From UHGV virus genome UHGV-0114973: a stretch of DNA of 18,293 nt; one strand, 5' to 3'. A program made the translations under genes and the position numbers. The DNA comes from a virus. The notes under the pieces are model-generated. The model was not told where the DNA came from and ran no database searches. It saw only the letters and a list, made by a program, of their open reading frames with translations. This document shows positions 11,718 through 16,635 of this stretch, piece after piece; position 1 is the stretch's first letter; every line of letters begins with the position of its first letter.

Positions 11718-12125
11718 ATGAGTAACTTTAAATTCAGTCAGAGAAGTGAAAATAATCTGAAAGGGGTTAACCCGGATCTTGTGAAAATCGTGCGTCGGGC
11801 ACTTCTGTTATCACCCGTTGATTTCGGTATCACAGAAGGTTTACGAACTGTTGAACGACAACGACAACTGGTTGCGGCAGGTAAGAGGCAGACGATGAAC
11901 AGTAGCCATATCACGGGTCATGCTGTTGATGTGTTTGCCTACCCTACATCAGCCGGGTCATGGGAATGGAAATACTACGAACAGATCGCCACTGCATTTA
12001 AACAGGCTGCAAAAGAACTGAATATTCCTGTTGAATGGGGCGGTGACTGGAAAACACTGAAAGATGGTCCACACTTCCAGTTACCATATGCGAAATATCC
12101 GGCGCGAGATAACAATCATGGATAA
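11718..12125 (+). CDS. endolysin, L-alanyl-D-glutamate peptidase (peptidase M15 / VanY-like)
   Basis: 135 aa with SHITGHAVDV and a following Asp/His pattern matching the zinc-binding motifs of T5-type M15 endolysins. GGGAG ribosome-binding site. Followed by holin and spanin genes. Confidence 0.85.
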   Translation: MSNFKFSQRSENNLKGVNPDLVKIVRRALLLSPVDFGITEGLRTVERQRQLVAAGKRQTMNSSHITGHAVDVFAYPTSAGSWEWKYYEQIATAFKQAAKELNIPVEWGGDWKTLKDGPHFQLPYAKYPARDNNHG

Positions 12126-12348
12126 GTTCAGCATTTTACGTAACACAACCGGAGGGATCTCTTTAAGCCGCGCACAAGCGGCTTTAGGCTTCCTCGTGGT
12201 AACAGGGATTCTGATTTATCAGGCCGTGGACCGCACACTTGATGATACAGTGCTGTTAACCTATTTCGGTTTCTGTATAGGTCAGTATGTTGGTGCTAAA
12301 AAAATCGCTGTAGATAAACAACGAGGTACGCCAAATGACAACCCGTAG
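12118..12348 (+). CDS. putative holin (two predicted transmembrane segments)
   Basis: Start taken at the ATG 12118 (MDKFSIL...), which overlaps the endolysin stop (ATGGATAA). 76 aa with hydrophobic segments AALGFLVVTGILIY and LLTYFGFCIGQYVG. Confidence 0.5.
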   Translation: MDKFSILRNTTGGISLSRAQAALGFLVVTGILIYQAVDRTLDDTVLLTYFGFCIGQYVGAKKIAVDKQRGTPNDNP

Positions 12349-12733
12349 TGTGTTAATCACCGTTGTTGCAACTGTTCTGGTATTAGGCGCTGGTGCGTAC
12401 ACGTGTTACCACGCGGGATATAAAGCACGGGCAAATGAAGAACGTCAGGAACGTTTAGAGGATGCACAACGGGAACAACAACGGTTAAAAGCACAACAGG
12501 AATTGGCTGATGATGTACTTCGTGGTTTAGCTGACTGGTCGCAGAATACTAAAATCGTGGAAATACGACATGAAAAGACTAATACTGTTTTTCGTAACGA
12601 GTGTCTTACTTCTGAATATCAACGCTTGTACAACGAACGAGTTACCGAAGCAGAAGCCCGTTTATCAGGCCGCATTAGTTCAGAAGTGTCAGACCGAAAA
12701 CCTTCCACGGCTGAACGGTCTGACAGGAAGTGA
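12335..12733 (+). CDS. i-spanin (Rz-like inner-membrane spanin subunit)
   Basis: 132 aa. N-terminal transmembrane segment (VLITVVATVLVLGAGAY) followed by a charged coiled-coil periplasmic region. Contains an out-of-frame o-spanin ORF. Confidence 0.65.
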   Translation: MTTRSVLITVVATVLVLGAGAYTCYHAGYKARANEERQERLEDAQREQQRLKAQQELADDVLRGLADWSQNTKIVEIRHEKTNTVFRNECLTSEYQRLYNERVTEAEARLSGRISSEVSDRKPSTAERSDRK

Positions 12734-12818
12734 TTCAACAGATGTTAATGACCAGTGGTTAGATATTTATTTCAAATGTGCAACTATTCACAACGCATTA
12801 GTAGACAGTCTTCAGTAA
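12570..12818 (+). CDS. o-spanin (Rz1-like outer-membrane lipoprotein), overlapped arrangement
   Basis: 82 aa starting in the +1 frame inside the i-spanin gene and running 85 nt past its stop. Signal peptide MKRLILFFVTSVLLLNINAC with a lipobox-like Cys, though Asn at position -2 is atypical. Confidence 0.65.
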   Translation: MKRLILFFVTSVLLLNINACTTNELPKQKPVYQAALVQKCQTENLPRLNGLTGSDSTDVNDQWLDIYFKCATIHNALVDSLQ

Positions 12819-13031
12819 ATCTTCAACCGATACTTCAATCCACGATGCGGGAACCGGATATTCAGTCCGGTACATGAACAAGGATGTTCCTATCAACCCG
12901 TGTGGATCTGTTTTAATCCCTCGCATGTTCAACAATGGAAAAAACTGTTCGCGTGTTTGTGGCAATCTTGCAAAGCGTCCTGTCGGGCGTTTAGCAGGAT
13001 CCATAGGGTTGAATTCAACGATTGTGGACAT
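12798..13031 (-). CDS. hypothetical protein (77 aa), last gene of the minus-strand operon
   Basis: ATG at 13031-13029 with AGGAG 8 nt upstream. Overlaps the Dam-like gene's 3' end by 17 nt and the o-spanin 3' end convergently by 21 nt. Confidence 0.4.
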   Translation of the reverse strand: MSTIVEFNPMDPAKRPTGRFARLPQTREQFFPLLNMRGIKTDPHGLIGTSLFMYRTEYPVPASWIEVSVEDLLKTVY

Positions 13032-13536
13032 AACAATAACTCCTGTACGCTTGTCTTTTTATTTTCTGATAGTCGGAAACTTTTACAGATCTTGTTTTAC
13101 ATTCACCAATACGATGTGGGTCGAAAATAAACATCATCTGTGAACGGTCATTTCCTCCTGCTGGTAACCCGGTGTCAGGGTCTACAAACGCTATACGGCC
13201 TTTAAACACCCATAGTTCCGAACAATGTGTCAGTGCTTTGTGAAACCAGTCTGCAGACGTCATAGCGTTCACGAGTAATAACGAACCAGTTCCCTGATGA
13301 ACAGTGGTTATTATTTTATTAACCCAGGGAGACGGATCGCTATACGGTGGGTTGCACCAGACGAACCCACCACCATTACTTTGAACAATCGAATGCCAGT
13401 CTTTATTCAGACTATCAGTGATAAATAACGAACATTTAGCGTTAGAACCATCGGTACACACATCAAGAACAAGTGGGAATTCACGAGAAACGTTATCAAT
13501 AAAATCCCACGGTGTTTCCCAGTTGTCTTTAGCCAT
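13015..13536 (-). CDS. phage Dam-like DNA N6-adenine methyltransferase (orphan)
   Basis: Motifs WETPWDF, LDVCT, the catalytic CNPPYS (the N6-adenine methyltransferase DPPY-type motif) and WFHK. Start taken at the ATG 13536 (MAKDNWETPWDF) rather than the TTG at 13596. No restriction enzyme partner is visible. Confidence 0.8.
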   Translation of the reverse strand: MAKDNWETPWDFIDNVSREFPLVLDVCTDGSNAKCSLFITDSLNKDWHSIVQSNGGGFVWCNPPYSDPSPWVNKIITTVHQGTGSLLLVNAMTSADWFHKALTHCSELWVFKGRIAFVDPDTGLPAGGNDRSQMMFIFDPHRIGECKTRSVKVSDYQKIKRQAYRSYCYVHNR

Positions 13537-13882
13537 GTTCCGGTACGCTCTCCACACTGTAATAAACGGGGATGCCCAGACGTTCAGCTTCTGCAATTTC
13601 TGCTAGCGTACCAGACGAACGACGATAATCAGGAAGCACCAGAACAGCGTCACAGCGGCGCATAATTTCTAACGTACCTGATAGGTAGTATTCAGGTTGT
13701 ATATTGCGTAAACCGCCGTCAAAATCCCACAATTCGGTGTTCTTGTGAGGAATAACCGGGAACCATCCCGGACGTTGTAAAGCCAGTCGTTTACCTGCCT
13801 GTTCAGCGCGTGACACGTTACGGGATGTTTTAAGCGCACAATCAGCACGATAAGGCCCGGCAATGTAACAGAGTTTAATCAT
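13529..13882 (-). CDS. nucleoside 2-deoxyribosyltransferase-like (NDT / DUF1937-type fold) protein
   Basis: Start taken at the ATG 13882 (MIKLCYIAGPY...) with AGGAAA 6 nt upstream. N-terminal YIAGP motif and a later D...SSGTLAEIAEAERLGIPVYY segment match my recollection of the two signature segments of the deoxyribosyltransferase / Rcl-type Rossmann fold. Overlaps both neighbours by 8 nt. Confidence 0.6.
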   Translation of the reverse strand: MIKLCYIAGPYRADCALKTSRNVSRAEQAGKRLALQRPGWFPVIPHKNTELWDFDGGLRNIQPEYYLSGTLEIMRRCDAVLVLPDYRRSSGTLAEIAEAERLGIPVYYSVESVPEHG

Positions 13883-14210
13883 GGTTGTTTTCCTGCATCT
13901 GTAAGAACACAATCATTGCGGCACGGAGTGGGTTAGCGTGAGAACAATAAATTGTAGGTTCGTTAATCATATCCCAACCACATTGATCAAATTCAAAATC
14001 ACCCCAGGCTAACCATTCGTTTTCATTAGTGTCAAACGCAATGCTAATCTTATTTTCAATAATAATCGGCATTGCGTCTGTAGGGTTATTGCAGTAATCA
14101 ACTACTTGATTCACCAGTTCCAGACGATGTTCGTGTGATGGTTCACCGTATAATTTACGACTAACCATTGCGTTGATTGAAATATCACTTAAAACACTGT
14201 AATCAGTCAT
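13875..14210 (-). CDS. small strongly acidic protein (111 aa), DNA-mimic / anti-restriction candidate
   Basis: ATG at 14210-14208 with GAGGGAA upstream, overlapping the previous stop (ATGACTGA). I count about 18 Asp+Glu against 5 Lys+Arg, so the predicted pI is near 4. No recognisable catalytic motif. Confidence 0.5.
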   Translation of the reverse strand: MTDYSVLSDISINAMVSRKLYGEPSHEHRLELVNQVVDYCNNPTDAMPIIIENKISIAFDTNENEWLAWGDFEFDQCGWDMINEPTIYCSHANPLRAAMIVFLQMQENNHD

Positions 14211-14739
14211 GACGATTCATTCCCTCTAACATGTCCCAGATAAGCGCAACACGGCGCGGATCCGTGCTGATAGTGTGTAAAGTTTCACACCCGTAATGCC
14301 ATCCCCAGCGAACGGATAGTTCTGACAACAGGTAACCACGGGAATTAGCCAGCTCAGCCAGTTCACCGGGTTTAAATGTCGTTGTATTAGGTTCTGTAAG
14401 AACACGAGTACCACAGATAGCGTCACTGATGCGCCACGGTTTCATCAGGTCATCAACCTTATACCAGTTACTGATACTGATTTCAGACGTTCCCCAGCGT
14501 GCAGCCAGTTTCAGACGTTCCTGACGGGCCGGGAACATTGGCATCTGTGGTAAACGCAGTTGGATCTGTTCTGCAGGTTCAAACATGTCGTCGTCTGTTA
14601 AACGAAATTCACCACGGTCATCAATATAAAAACCACGGGAACGACCATCACGGGTGAACCCGTCAACACGGTTGTAAATTTTACCGGGAGTAAAGACACC
14701 AATCGGTGAACCAGCTACAAATTTGTGTGAAGTATGCAT
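14203..14739 (-). CDS. hypothetical protein (178 aa)
   Basis: ATG at 14739-14737 with GAGG 8 nt upstream, 39 bp downstream of the PolB stop. Coding-quality ORF translationally coupled to the next gene. No family recognised by eye. Confidence 0.5.
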   Translation of the reverse strand: MHTSHKFVAGSPIGVFTPGKIYNRVDGFTRDGRSRGFYIDDRGEFRLTDDDMFEPAEQIQLRLPQMPMFPARQERLKLAARWGTSEISISNWYKVDDLMKPWRISDAICGTRVLTEPNTTTFKPGELAELANSRGYLLSELSVRWGWHYGCETLHTISTDPRRVALIWDMLEGMNRHD

Positions 14740-14778: not shown

Positions 14779-16635
14779 TTACCGAAGTGGTGCAACGAGT
14801 TTTTCAGCTTCTTTGATGTAAAAATCATAATTGAGCGTTGCCCGGTTAAAACGTTTCATGTCGTTACATTCCGTGGTCAACCAACCTTTGCACACGGACA
14901 TACGGCGCTCAGGCGCGTCAGGGTTCAGTTTCAGTGATTTTGCCAGCGGTGGCATGACTTTTGTCAAAGGTGCACCATCTGTACTGACGTAATAACGGGT
15001 AATGTTCTGAACCTGTTTATCACCCCATAGTAATTTGCTGTTACGTGGTACTTTCGTCACTAACATGAAATCGTGAATATCTTCGTGTGATGTTATAAAA
15101 TCACGAATGTCTTTATTGTGTACCAGTGCTGCTTCAGCCGCTTTTGCGACAACCTGCATACTGTGGTTTTGATGCCAACCCAGATCAACGCTGTGACAAT
15201 AAGCGCCTTTACGTTTAACTTTCTTACCGCCTTCGTAAACAGCGATGTAATTATTTACATCGCGGATAAACATCACGTCATAAATTGCTTCTTCAAGCTG
15301 GAGTCTGGTTAATTTTTCCCACGCGTGACGAACCTGTTCTACTTGTCCGGTAAACACTCGTGGCACGTAAACCGTAAGACCATCTGTGTTAGCCTGGATC
15401 ATGGACAAACCAGGGATTTTCAGAAGTTCTTCAGCCAACATACACAAAAGTAACTGTCCGTTAATCGTAATAGCCATTGTGTAAGCAGGATCGTAGAATG
15501 GACTGTATACGTTATTACTGTCACCATACACACCGTTTAACGCCAGTTTTAACATTGCATTTTCTGGTGTACCTTTCGGGTAACTGGAACGCATGTCGTA
15601 AACATTTTTATAAATGGTGCAAAATTGTTTTCCCAGATGTGCCGGATAAAGTTCATTACTGATCGCAAGGTTCGGATAAAAACTGGCAACGTCCAGATCG
15701 ATGATCACATAATTTTCAGTGGACCTGATAGTTTGAGACTCAATAGACCCGTGGATACCACCCGTACCAAAATCAAACGAGAACCCGTTAATGTCTGCGC
15801 TTAAATCTGTGAATACACCTTTTGTTTCAGTGATAACCTGTTGACGTAACCAGTTAAGAACACGATTAAATTCAGGCTGTTCAAAACGGACATAAGGGAA
15901 AATCACACTGTTCAATGCGATTGATGGTCTGTGCGTCTGTCGTGGTTTTCTGCTACCCGGTTCGAAACATTGAATACCTGATTTTTCAAGTTCCATGATG
16001 AAATATTCTTTACCGATTTTCGTGTCGTTATGGTTCATGAAATTACGACCGTATTTAGCAGAAAGTTCACGACGAAAATCTATCAGCTTTTTACTGTGTT
16101 TATAAAACATCAAAGTCGCTTTCAAATCGTGCATCAGATATTGACGAAGCGTATCAATTTGAGAATCGGTTAAATAAGTCCCTGGCGTAAACGGAAGGTC
16201 TTCAATGTTTTCCATTCTCATATTGAATTCAAGTGTTTTCAGACTTGTTCGTTTTGCCTGATTGTCGAAATGATGAATTTTATACAAATCAAGCTGGGGA
16301 ACTATCCAGTCTTTTTCCCACACCATATGAGCAAAACGATTTTCATCACCAGCGTTAATTATTGAATCACCTTTTTTATAAATGTCTGCGTTGGTGATAT
16401 ACATGATGTTGTTCAAAATAGAATGCTGAACAGGATAGTCGTAACCCAGATTGTTATAACCAATTTCTTCAGCACGATGTTCACGCAAATATTCTGTGAA
16501 CAGGTAAAAAGCCTGACGATCATCGCGACGATGTGAAATCTCAAAAATATAAGGCGTTTCGGTTAACGCGTGAATAGCACCGAACAGAAAAACATTAGGA
16601 TAGTTTTCAATATCGTGAACGTAAGCATCTGACAT
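14779..16635 (-). CDS. compact family-B DNA polymerase with a 3'-5' exonuclease domain
   Basis: 618 aa. Exo I D8-I-E10; Exo II N62-L-G-Y-D66; Exo III Y166-L-M-H-D170 (spacing close to phi29 DNA polymerase); motif A D315-V-A-S-F-Y-P (Dx2SLYP-type); motif B K363-L-A-L-N-G-V-Y-G (Kx3NSxYG-type); motif C N416-T-D418 (an NTD variant of DTD). Motifs are only 48 and 55 aa apart and no TPR-like insertions are evident. Confidence 0.7.
   Translation of the reverse strand: MSDAYVHDIENYPNVFLFGAIHALTETPYIFEISHRRDDRQAFYLFTEYLREHRAEEIGYNNLGYDYPVQHSILNNIMYITNADIYKKGDSIINAGDENRFAHMVWEKDWIVPQLDLYKIHHFDNQAKRTSLKTLEFNMRMENIEDLPFTPGTYLTDSQIDTLRQYLMHDLKATLMFYKHSKKLIDFRRELSAKYGRNFMNHNDTKIGKEYFIMELEKSGIQCFEPGSRKPRQTHRPSIALNSVIFPYVRFEQPEFNRVLNWLRQQVITETKGVFTDLSADINGFSFDFGTGGIHGSIESQTIRSTENYVIIDLDVASFYPNLAISNELYPAHLGKQFCTIYKNVYDMRSSYPKGTPENAMLKLALNGVYGDSNNVYSPFYDPAYTMAITINGQLLLCMLAEELLKIPGLSMIQANTDGLTVYVPRVFTGQVEQVRHAWEKLTRLQLEEAIYDVMFIRDVNNYIAVYEGGKKVKRKGAYCHSVDLGWHQNHSMQVVAKAAEAALVHNKDIRDFITSHEDIHDFMLVTKVPRNSKLLWGDKQVQNITRYYVSTDGAPLTKVMPPLAKSLKLNPDAPERRMSVCKGWLTTECNDMKRFNRATLNYDFYIKEAEKLVAPLR

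What the first reader, a model, noticed from the sequence alone, without database searches (positions are those of the whole stretch)
13529..13882. Deoxyribosyltransferase-fold protein encoded next to an orphan Dam-like methyltransferase
The YIAGP start and the D...SGT..E..G.PV segment are the hallmarks of the NDT / Rcl (dNMP N-glycosidase) fold as I recall them. In a phage this could remodel the dNTP pool, for example removing a canonical dNMP or salvaging bases, or it could bind a nucleotide second messenger. The role depends on whether the catalytic Glu is intact and oriented, which cannot be judged by eye.
Basis: partly seen in the sequence, partly recalled or inferred. Interest (0 to 1): 0.5.

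Follow-up and report, generated by a model that had tools for sequence, protein, structure and literature searches.

The report
Small DNPH1-like phage nucleotide glycosidase
A 117-residue gene in a 9NA-like E. coli/Salmonella phage encodes a miniature protein with the deoxyribosyltransferase/DNPH1 fold and an intact catalytic glutamate; it is real and strongly conserved, but near-identical copies are already annotated this way in public phage genomes and its substrate has never been tested.

Summary

E95 aligns with the catalytic Glu of Rcl, BcmB and T. brucei NDT and is invariant in 260 homologs. So are Y6, G9, S89 and G91, which match the Rcl residues that hold the sugar and the 5'-phosphate. 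The Ser (not Asp) six residues before the Glu and the Tyr on strand 1 point to a 2'-deoxynucleoside 5'-monophosphate N-glycosidase, not a nucleoside transferase. The triad Asp is Thr70, and the C-terminal extension of NDT/Rcl is missing.

Base specificity and biological role are unknown. Dam adjacency is not general. A DNA methyltransferase lies immediately downstream in 5 of 43 viral lineages (post hoc p=0.0016) and in 0 of 17 genomic loci, although the slot always holds some methyltransferase in 9NA-like phages. Near-identical proteins are already annotated as NDT, DNPH1 or DUF4406. This is an ordinary finding of low to moderate interest.

The parts
13529..13882 (-). 117-aa ORF of the DUF7768/DUF4406 family (NDT clan). 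Predicted minimal four-stranded alpha/beta fold: strands 3-8, 40-43, 79-82 and about 105-107; helices 16-36, 63-75 and 90-102.
13598..13600 (-). Codon GAA = Glu95, the predicted covalent nucleophile. It aligns with Glu93 of Rcl and with the Glu of BcmB and T. brucei NDT, and is present in 100% of 260 family members.
13616..13618 (-). Codon TCG = Ser89, six residues before the Glu. It aligns with Ser87 of Rcl (5'-phosphate ligand) and the Ser of BcmB, where the nucleoside transferase TbNDT has Asp. Conserved in 99%.
13865..13867 (-). Codon TAC = Tyr6 on strand 1. It aligns with Tyr13 of Rcl; the CMP glycosidase BcmB has Phe here. Conserved in 99%.
13673..13675 (-). Codon ACG = Thr70. It aligns with the triad Asp69 of Rcl. 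The family has Thr in 87% and Asp in 10%.
13015..13536 (-). 173-aa orphan Dam-type N6-adenine methyltransferase (PF05869, NPPY motif). Its ATG overlaps the stop of the target gene by 8 nt.
13875..14210 (-). NinX (DUF2591) homolog. Its stop overlaps the target's ATG by 8 nt.
14203..14739 (-). 178-aa hypothetical protein (PHROG 19205) in the same operon.
14779..16635 (-). 618-aa DNA polymerase (PHROG 1252), the first gene of the co-directional block.
12798..13031 (-). 77-aa hypothetical protein, the last gene of the block. It is conserved in 9NA, Sasha and Carvaje whichever methyltransferase precedes it.

Best explanation
The gene encodes a small enzyme of the N-(deoxy)ribosyltransferase superfamily (Pfam DUF7768/DUF4406). 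It most likely works like DNPH1/Rcl or the phage enzyme DmtZ. It would bind a 2'-deoxyribonucleoside 5'-monophosphate, or a close analogue, and Glu95 would attack C1' to form a covalent deoxyribosyl-5-phosphate-enzyme intermediate and release the base. The intermediate would then be resolved by water (N-glycosidase) or by another base (phospho-deoxyribosyl transfer). What is shown: the fold, the conservation of the active-site residues, and strong purifying selection. What is inferred: catalysis itself, the deoxy and 5'-phosphate preference (from Tyr6 and from Ser89, Gly91 and Arg12), and any physiological role. The base specificity is unknown. Because these phages carry ordinary, restriction-sensitive DNA and no other nucleotide-metabolism genes, the target is more likely a non-canonical or unwanted dNMP than a bulk canonical one.
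Against: No biochemical data exist for any DUF7768, DUF4406 or DUF1937 member. The triad Asp (Rcl D69, NDT D72) is Thr70 here, so the usual acid/stabiliser is missing. The protein ends 22 residues after the Glu and lacks the C-terminal segment that supplies Ser117'/Met119' (Rcl) or Asn123'/Tyr157' (NDT) to the partner's active site. The hhalign probability to Rcl is only 24% (E 8e-4), and sequence matches to solved NDT-clan chains are weak (E 0.009-0.4). A dNMP-destroying enzyme has no obvious benefit for a phage with canonical DNA.
Confidence: 0.5

Rival explanations
1. It is a genuine nucleoside 2-deoxyribosyltransferase (EC 2.4.2.6), as RefSeq and several GenBank records name it. It would swap bases between deoxynucleosides for salvage.
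Against: PF05014 scores 17.5, below its 28.8 gathering score. The Asp that binds the 5'-OH in NDTs is Ser89, the state seen in the 5'-monophosphate hydrolases. The triad Asp is Thr. The C-terminal segment that completes the NDT active site is absent.
Confidence: 0.1
2. It acts on, or simply sequesters, a nucleotide-derived immune signal or other ribo-nucleotide (an ADP-ribose derivative, NAD-like or cyclic nucleotide). In that case it would be an anti-defence protein and not a pool enzyme.
Against: There is no PADLOC hit. The family is not mentioned among the phage sponges and signal-cleaving enzymes described in the two papers examined. It is closer to NDT/DNPH1 than to TIR. Tyr6 argues for 2'-deoxy substrates. 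An invariant nucleophile fits an enzyme better than a sponge.
Confidence: 0.15
3. It is a functional partner of the phage DNA methyltransferase encoded immediately downstream. For example, it could remove methylated dNMPs (m6dAMP, m4dCMP or m5dCMP) from the pool, as human DNPH1 removes hm5dUMP, or it could cleave the inhibitory by-product S-adenosylhomocysteine.
For: In 9NA-like phages the slot after this gene always holds a methyltransferase. The enzyme has been exchanged (PF05869 173 aa; PF01555 393 aa and 259 aa; a 480-aa methylase), and it overlaps the target's stop codon in the five phages with coordinates in hand: the window and PDP46 by 8 nt, 9NA and Sasha by 11 nt, Carvaje by 8 nt and Flyfo by 14 nt. 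Among 43 non-redundant viral loci a Dam, N6_N4 or C5 methyltransferase sits at +1 with an overlapping start in 5, against 11 of 676 other slots (Fisher p=0.0016). DNPH1 binds N6-substituted adenine nucleotides (PMC3834327).
Against: The statistic is post hoc and rests on crude ORF calls. The pre-specified replication on 17 genomic loci gave 0 of 17 at +1, with one methyltransferase at -1 and one at -2. About 85-90% of lineages have no adjacent methyltransferase, and Chi-like phages have a PAPS-reductase-like gene instead. Short overlaps are common in packed phage operons. Tyr6 argues against a ribo-substrate such as SAH.
Confidence: 0.12

Closest known systems
DNPH1 / Rcl (2'-deoxynucleoside 5'-phosphate N-hydrolase; hm5dUMP hydrolase), PDB 2khz and 4fyh
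   Different: 117 aa against 163 aa, with no C-terminal segment (Ser117'/Met119'). The triad Asp69 is Thr70. Sequence similarity is detectable only by profile (E 8e-4, probability 24%). Activity is untested.
DmtZ of 2-aminoadenine (Z-genome) phages (NAR 2026, PMC12884076)
   Same: A phage-encoded NDT-superfamily enzyme acting on a dNMP. It has a Tyr/(Asn)/Glu triad with a non-acidic residue at the Asp position, and space-saving uncharged residues at the 5'-phosphate site.
   Different: DmtZ is about 145 aa, is linked or fused to a dUTPase-like DutZ, and sits in a PurZ0 Z-DNA cluster. The window's phage group has no PurZ, DatZ or MazZ context and has restriction-sensitive DNA.
DUF1937 (PF09152), structure 1t1j (P. 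aeruginosa hypothetical protein)
   Different: 15% identity. The Pfam score of 15 is below the 23 cut-off. It has Phe, not Tyr, at the strand-1 position. It is also functionally uncharacterised.
MilB / BcmB CMP N-glycosidases
   Different: These act on ribo-CMP and have Phe where this family has Tyr. They are larger (158-176 aa) and belong to antibiotic biosynthesis clusters.
Class I/II nucleoside 2-deoxyribosyltransferases (PF05014; L. leichmannii 1f8x, T. brucei 2a0k)
   Different: They have Asp, not Ser, at the 5' site, an Asp general acid, and a C-terminal tail completing the neighbour's site. The window protein is below the Pfam gathering score.

Membership tests
Pfam DUF7768 (PF24963) / DUF4406 (PF14359) | Score above the curated gathering threshold of the family HMM | tested here: met
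   36.3 bits against 26 and 30.8 bits against 22. The orthologs in 9NA, Sasha and Carvaje also pass.
N-(deoxy)ribosyltransferase superfamily (fold level) | Flavodoxin-like parallel sheet with the active site at the C-terminal strand ends, and top structural neighbours within the clan | tested here: met
N-(deoxy)ribosyltransferase superfamily | Catalytic Glu nucleophile at the N-terminus of the helix after the penultimate strand | tested here: met
   E95 aligns with Rcl E93 and with the Glu of BcmB and TbNDT. It is 100% conserved. Its spatial orientation was not inspected.
N-(deoxy)ribosyltransferase superfamily | Tyr of the catalytic triad on strand 1 | tested here: met
   Y6 aligns with Rcl Y13 and is 99% conserved.
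N-(deoxy)ribosyltransferase superfamily | Asp (or Asn) of the catalytic triad at the start of helix 3 (NDT D72, Rcl D69, DmtZ N77) | tested here: not met
   The aligned residue is Thr70. The family has Thr in 87% and Asp in 10%.
Canonical nucleoside 2-deoxyribosyltransferase (PF05014, EC 2.4.2.6) | Pfam gathering score | tested here: not met
   17.5 bits against a cut-off of 28.8.
Canonical nucleoside 2-deoxyribosyltransferase (PF05014, EC 2.4.2.6) | Asp six residues before the Glu that binds the free 5'-OH (L. leichmannii D92) | tested here: not met
   This position is Ser89. The T. brucei NDT has Asp in the aligned column.
Canonical nucleoside 2-deoxyribosyltransferase (PF05014, EC 2.4.2.6) | C-terminal segment contributing residues to the neighbouring subunit's active site | tested here: not met
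   The protein ends 22 residues after Glu95. NDT and Rcl chains are 135-165 aa. Which C-terminal residues of L. leichmannii NDT contribute is taken from my own knowledge of that enzyme.
DNPH1/Rcl-type dNMP N-glycosidase | Ser and backbone Gly of the S-x-G motif plus the strand-1 loop forming the 5'-phosphate site | tested here: met
   S89/S87, G91/G89, R12/R19 and G9/G16 align. Their roles in Rcl are taken from PMC3834327.
DNPH1/Rcl-type dNMP N-glycosidase | Second phosphate-binding Ser (Ser117') and Met119' supplied by the partner subunit | tested here: not met
   No corresponding C-terminal region exists in the 117-aa protein.
DNPH1/Rcl-type dNMP N-glycosidase | Hydrolysis of dNMP to base plus deoxyribose 5-phosphate | not testable with these tools
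   This needs an enzyme assay.
DUF1937 (PF09152) | Pfam gathering score | tested here: not met
   15.0 bits against a cut-off of 23, although 1t1j is the closest structure.
Known anti-defence or defence protein families (PADLOC) | Match to a PADLOC model | tested here: not met
   No hit at E<=0.1.

The most novel reading that the evidence does not exclude
DUF7768 proteins are dedicated helpers of phage orphan DNA methyltransferases. They would be translationally coupled N-glycosidases that either clear methylated deoxynucleotides, keeping them from being re-incorporated at the wrong sites, or clear the methyltransferase's inhibitory by-product. This would explain why the gene is kept upstream of a methyltransferase slot whose occupant has been exchanged several times and across three unrelated methyltransferase families.
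Probability: 0.1. Interest if true: 0.6.

Novelty: already known. Interest (0 to 1): 0.25.

Why it matters
If the DNPH1-like reading is right, this very large and entirely untested family would be a widespread phage activity that destroys or exchanges the base of specific deoxynucleotides. The family has about 17,700 clusters at 50% identity and homologs in 211 GenBank phage records, including Chi and 9NA. Finding the substrate would show which nucleotide these otherwise 'canonical-DNA' phages need to remove. As it stands, the window adds only one more copy of a gene that databases already label this way.

Tried and rejected
1. A longer TTG start at 13912 was rejected, because the homolog N-termini align with the ATG at 13882.
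2. Domain fusions were sought as functional clues. The ten longest close relatives carry only DUF7768/DUF4406, plus one probable HNH gene fusion. A Cys-rich insertion in some homologs is uninformative.
3. No conserved gene partner exists. No neighbour cluster occurs in more than 7 of 43 non-redundant viral loci. Neighbours are generic replication or early genes such as helicase, primase, SSB, integrase and HTH proteins.
4. Dam adjacency is not a family rule. PF05869 lies within 3 genes in only 2 of 43 loci. The wider '+1 methyltransferase' pattern was suggestive but was not replicated in 17 genomic loci.
5. A role in DNA hypermodification or Z-genome synthesis was rejected. The relative PDP46 has no PurZ, DatZ or deazaguanine genes, and Bas82 is restriction-sensitive.
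7. The literature holds nothing on the function of DUF4406, DUF7768 or DUF1937. The two papers on phage sponges and signal-cleaving proteins that were examined (Sequestin/Lockin/Acb5 by term search, TadIV-1 by abstract and outline) do not mention this fold.
9. The afdb50 fold library was unavailable.
10. Model coordinates are not exposed, so Glu95 geometry and dimer modelling could not be examined.

Full report
**The observation.** The window carries an ORF on the minus strand from 13882 (ATG) to 13529 (end of the stop codon), 117 aa long. It starts MIKLCYIAGPYRAD and contains PDYRRSSGTLAEIAEAERLGIPV. It is the fourth gene of a co-directional, tightly packed block:
- DNA polymerase (14779-16635)
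- a 178-aa hypothetical protein (14203-14739)
- NinX/DUF2591 (13875-14210)
- the target gene
- a 173-aa Dam-type methyltransferase (13015-13536)
- a 77-aa hypothetical protein (12798-13031)

The target's ATG overlaps the NinX stop by 8 nt, and its stop overlaps the Dam ATG by 8 nt. Consensus scans found no promoter or terminator excess inside the block. The only slip is the leading 'D' of the second motif (D85), which is not conserved in the family.

**Origin of the window.** The region is 93-97% identical to Sashavirus/Nonanavirus siphophages of E. coli (PDP46, AVIO78A, Bas82/KarinMuster, PJ16) and about 84% identical to Salmonella phage 9NA. In those GenBank and RefSeq records the same gene is already named 'nucleoside 2-deoxyribosyltransferase', "2'-deoxynucleoside 5'-phosphate N-hydrolase 1" or 'DUF4406 domain-containing protein'. 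The PJ16 protein is 99% identical.

**Family and fold.**
- Pfam places the protein in DUF7768 (36.3 bits, cut-off 26) and DUF4406 (30.8, cut-off 22).
- Canonical NDT (PF05014, 17.5 against 28.8) and DUF1937 (15 against 23) are below threshold.
- PHROG 355, 'nucleoside 2-deoxyribosyltransferase', matches at 5e-26.
- NCBIfam and PADLOC give nothing.
- An AlphaFold2 model built on 70 homologs has mean pLDDT 96.6 and shows a minimal four-stranded alpha/beta unit.
- The family is large. There are 17,665 representatives at 50% identity with E<=1e-3 and homologs in 211 GenBank phage records, mostly Chi-like phages at about 41% identity.

**The catalytic machinery.**
- A profile of the family aligned to rat Rcl pairs Y6/Y13, G9/G16, R12/R19, H46/H45, T70/D69, D78/D77, S89/S87, G91/G89 and E95/E93.
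- Independent HMMER alignments put E95 on the Glu of the CMP glycosidase BcmB (4jen) and of T. brucei NDT (2a0k). They put S89 on a Ser in BcmB but on an Asp in the nucleoside transferase.
- In Rcl crystal structures the phosphate is held by Ser87, by a serine of the partner subunit (Ser117 by my knowledge of the enzyme; the text of PMC3834327 as held prints Ser17') and by the backbone of I18, R19, G20 and G89. The sugar is held by G16, G89, E93 and M119' (PMC3834327).
- Across 260 family members these positions are essentially invariant: Y6 99%, G9 100%, R12 95%, H46 98%, S89 99%, G91 100%, E95 100%.
- The DmtZ paper states that the NDT-superfamily triad is Tyr/Asp(Asn)/Glu, and that the Tyr orients the Glu and excludes ribo-substrates (PMC12884076).

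At sequence level the nucleophile is therefore intact. The sugar and phosphate-binding constellation of the 5'-monophosphate hydrolases is present, and the nucleoside-specific Asp is absent.

Two things differ from every characterised member. The triad Asp is Thr70 (Thr in 87% of the family, Asp in 10%). The protein also lacks the C-terminal segment that completes the neighbouring active site in NDT and Rcl. I could not inspect the geometry of Glu95 or model a dimer, because coordinates are not exposed.

**Is it a working gene?** Yes. Against the orthologs in PDP46, 9NA, Sasha and Carvaje, dN/dS is 0.04-0.08 at dS 0.27-0.8.

**Genomic context.** I fetched 80 viral loci plus several contigs and reduced them to 43 lineages in which the target is less than 80% identical.
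- No neighbour cluster occurs in more than 7 lineages.
- Pfam counts for the three genes on either side show replication and early functions. They include DNA methyltransferases of three unrelated families: PF05869 twice, PF01555 four times and PF00145 three times.
- A sample of 150 more distant genes from the same loci showed none among its top families.
- With HMMs built in the sandbox, a methyltransferase lies immediately downstream with an overlapping start in 5 of 43 lineages, against 11 of 676 other positions (Fisher p=0.0016). This test was post hoc and rests on crude ORF calls.
- I then fixed the hypothesis and tested it on 17 loci from bacterial genomes and MAGs. The result was 0 of 17 at +1, with one PF01555-type enzyme at -1 and one at -2.
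- Within the 9NA-like group the pattern is striking but comes from a single lineage. The gene is always followed by a methyltransferase, yet the enzyme differs: 173-aa Dam here and in PDP46, 393-aa PF01555 in 9NA and Sasha, 259-aa PF01555 in Carvaje, and a 480-aa methylase in Flyfo podovirus.
- In phage Chi the upstream partner is instead a PAPS-reductase/NinC-like gene.

I conclude that the Dam adjacency stressed in the finding's title is a lineage feature, possibly the edge of a methyltransferase swap hot spot. It is not a defining property of the family. A functional link is not excluded but is weakly supported.

**Biological role.** PDP46 shows no other nucleotide-metabolism or base-modification genes in the 30 kb examined. 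The BASEL study reports that Bas82 has no recognisable modification locus and is markedly sensitive to restriction-modification systems (PMC11990801). A role in hypermodified or Z-DNA synthesis is therefore unlikely. This holds even though phage NDT-family enzymes have just been tied to Z-genomes (DmtZ in PMC12884076, and PF05014 NDTs in bioRxiv 2025.10.22.683976). Hints consistent with dNMP catabolism are thin. More distant viral NDT-like proteins are fused to a dATP/dGTP diphosphohydrolase domain, and one homolog lies two genes from a dNMP kinase. No paper in the searchable library addresses DUF4406, DUF7768 or DUF1937.

**Verdict.** The fold assignment and the intact catalytic Glu are supported, while the functional speculations remain untested.
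- The best-supported mechanism is a DNPH1/DmtZ-like covalent N-glycosidase, or phosphodeoxyribosyl transferase, acting on a 2'-deoxynucleoside 5'-monophosphate of unknown base (confidence about 0.5).
- The rivals are a true nucleoside transferase (about 0.1), a hydrolase or binder of signalling nucleotides (about 0.15), and a methyltransferase-coupled function (about 0.12).

Near-identical proteins are already annotated in the same way, and the family is catalogued in Pfam. The finding is therefore already known at the level claimed, and I score its interest as low to moderate (0.25). The residual interest lies in the fact that this very large phage family has never been assayed.

Noticed in passing
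window 13015-13536, with L087:1172-2353, L088:1719-2498, L089:1716-2897 and L108:3323-4765: The gene slot immediately downstream of the DUF7768 gene always holds a DNA methyltransferase in 9NA-like phages, but the occupant has been exchanged. It is a 173-aa PF05869 Dam, a 393-aa or 259-aa PF01555 enzyme, or a 480-aa methylase, while the flanking genes stay conserved. This looks like a methyltransferase swap hot spot.
   Followed up: partly
window 14779-16635 (- strand): The 618-aa DNA polymerase has no Pfam-A hit at E<=0.1, although PHROG 1252 'DNA polymerase' matches at 1.7e-215. It appears to be a polymerase lineage not covered by Pfam models.
   Followed up: no
L001:27394-28466 (Escherichia phage PDP46, outside this window): The close relative PDP46 encodes a YAcAr/SLOG-family protein (PF10686, 1e-19) directly after a gene annotated as cytosine methyltransferase, which has no Pfam hit. 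This is a second pairing in the same genome of a methyltransferase-like gene with a small Rossmannoid protein of a nucleotide-binding superfamily (SLOG).
   Followed up: partly
L107:2566-3923 (Salmonella phage Chi gp42-gp41): In Chi-like phages the 41%-identical homolog (gp41) is preceded, with a 4-nt overlap, by a PAPS-reductase/lambda NinC-like gene. ThyX (gp47) lies about 2.7 kb upstream.
   Followed up: no
L090:4530-6165 (Marinobacter MAG prophage): A deoxynucleotide monophosphate kinase (PF21448, 1e-29) lies two genes downstream of the DUF7768 homolog. This is a single instance of linkage to dNMP metabolism.
   Followed up: no
proteins P0078 and P0087 (homologs, 196-198 aa): These homologs carry a Cys-rich insertion (CCQ...CPDC, zinc-ribbon-like) between helix 1 and strand 2, and have Lys in place of the otherwise 97%-conserved Asp78.
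   Followed up: no
window 12335-12818 (+ strand): The lysis cassette has an o-spanin ORF (12570-12818) embedded out of frame in the i-spanin ORF (12335-12733). It lies downstream of an M15 peptidase endolysin (11718-12125). This is the ordinary Rz/Rz1 arrangement.
   Followed up: no
window 13015-13536 against PHROG 33262: The Dam protein also matches the C-terminal part (profile positions 305-443) of a PHROG annotated as PAPS reductase. This suggests that PAPS-reductase-Dam fusion proteins exist in other phages.
   Followed up: no
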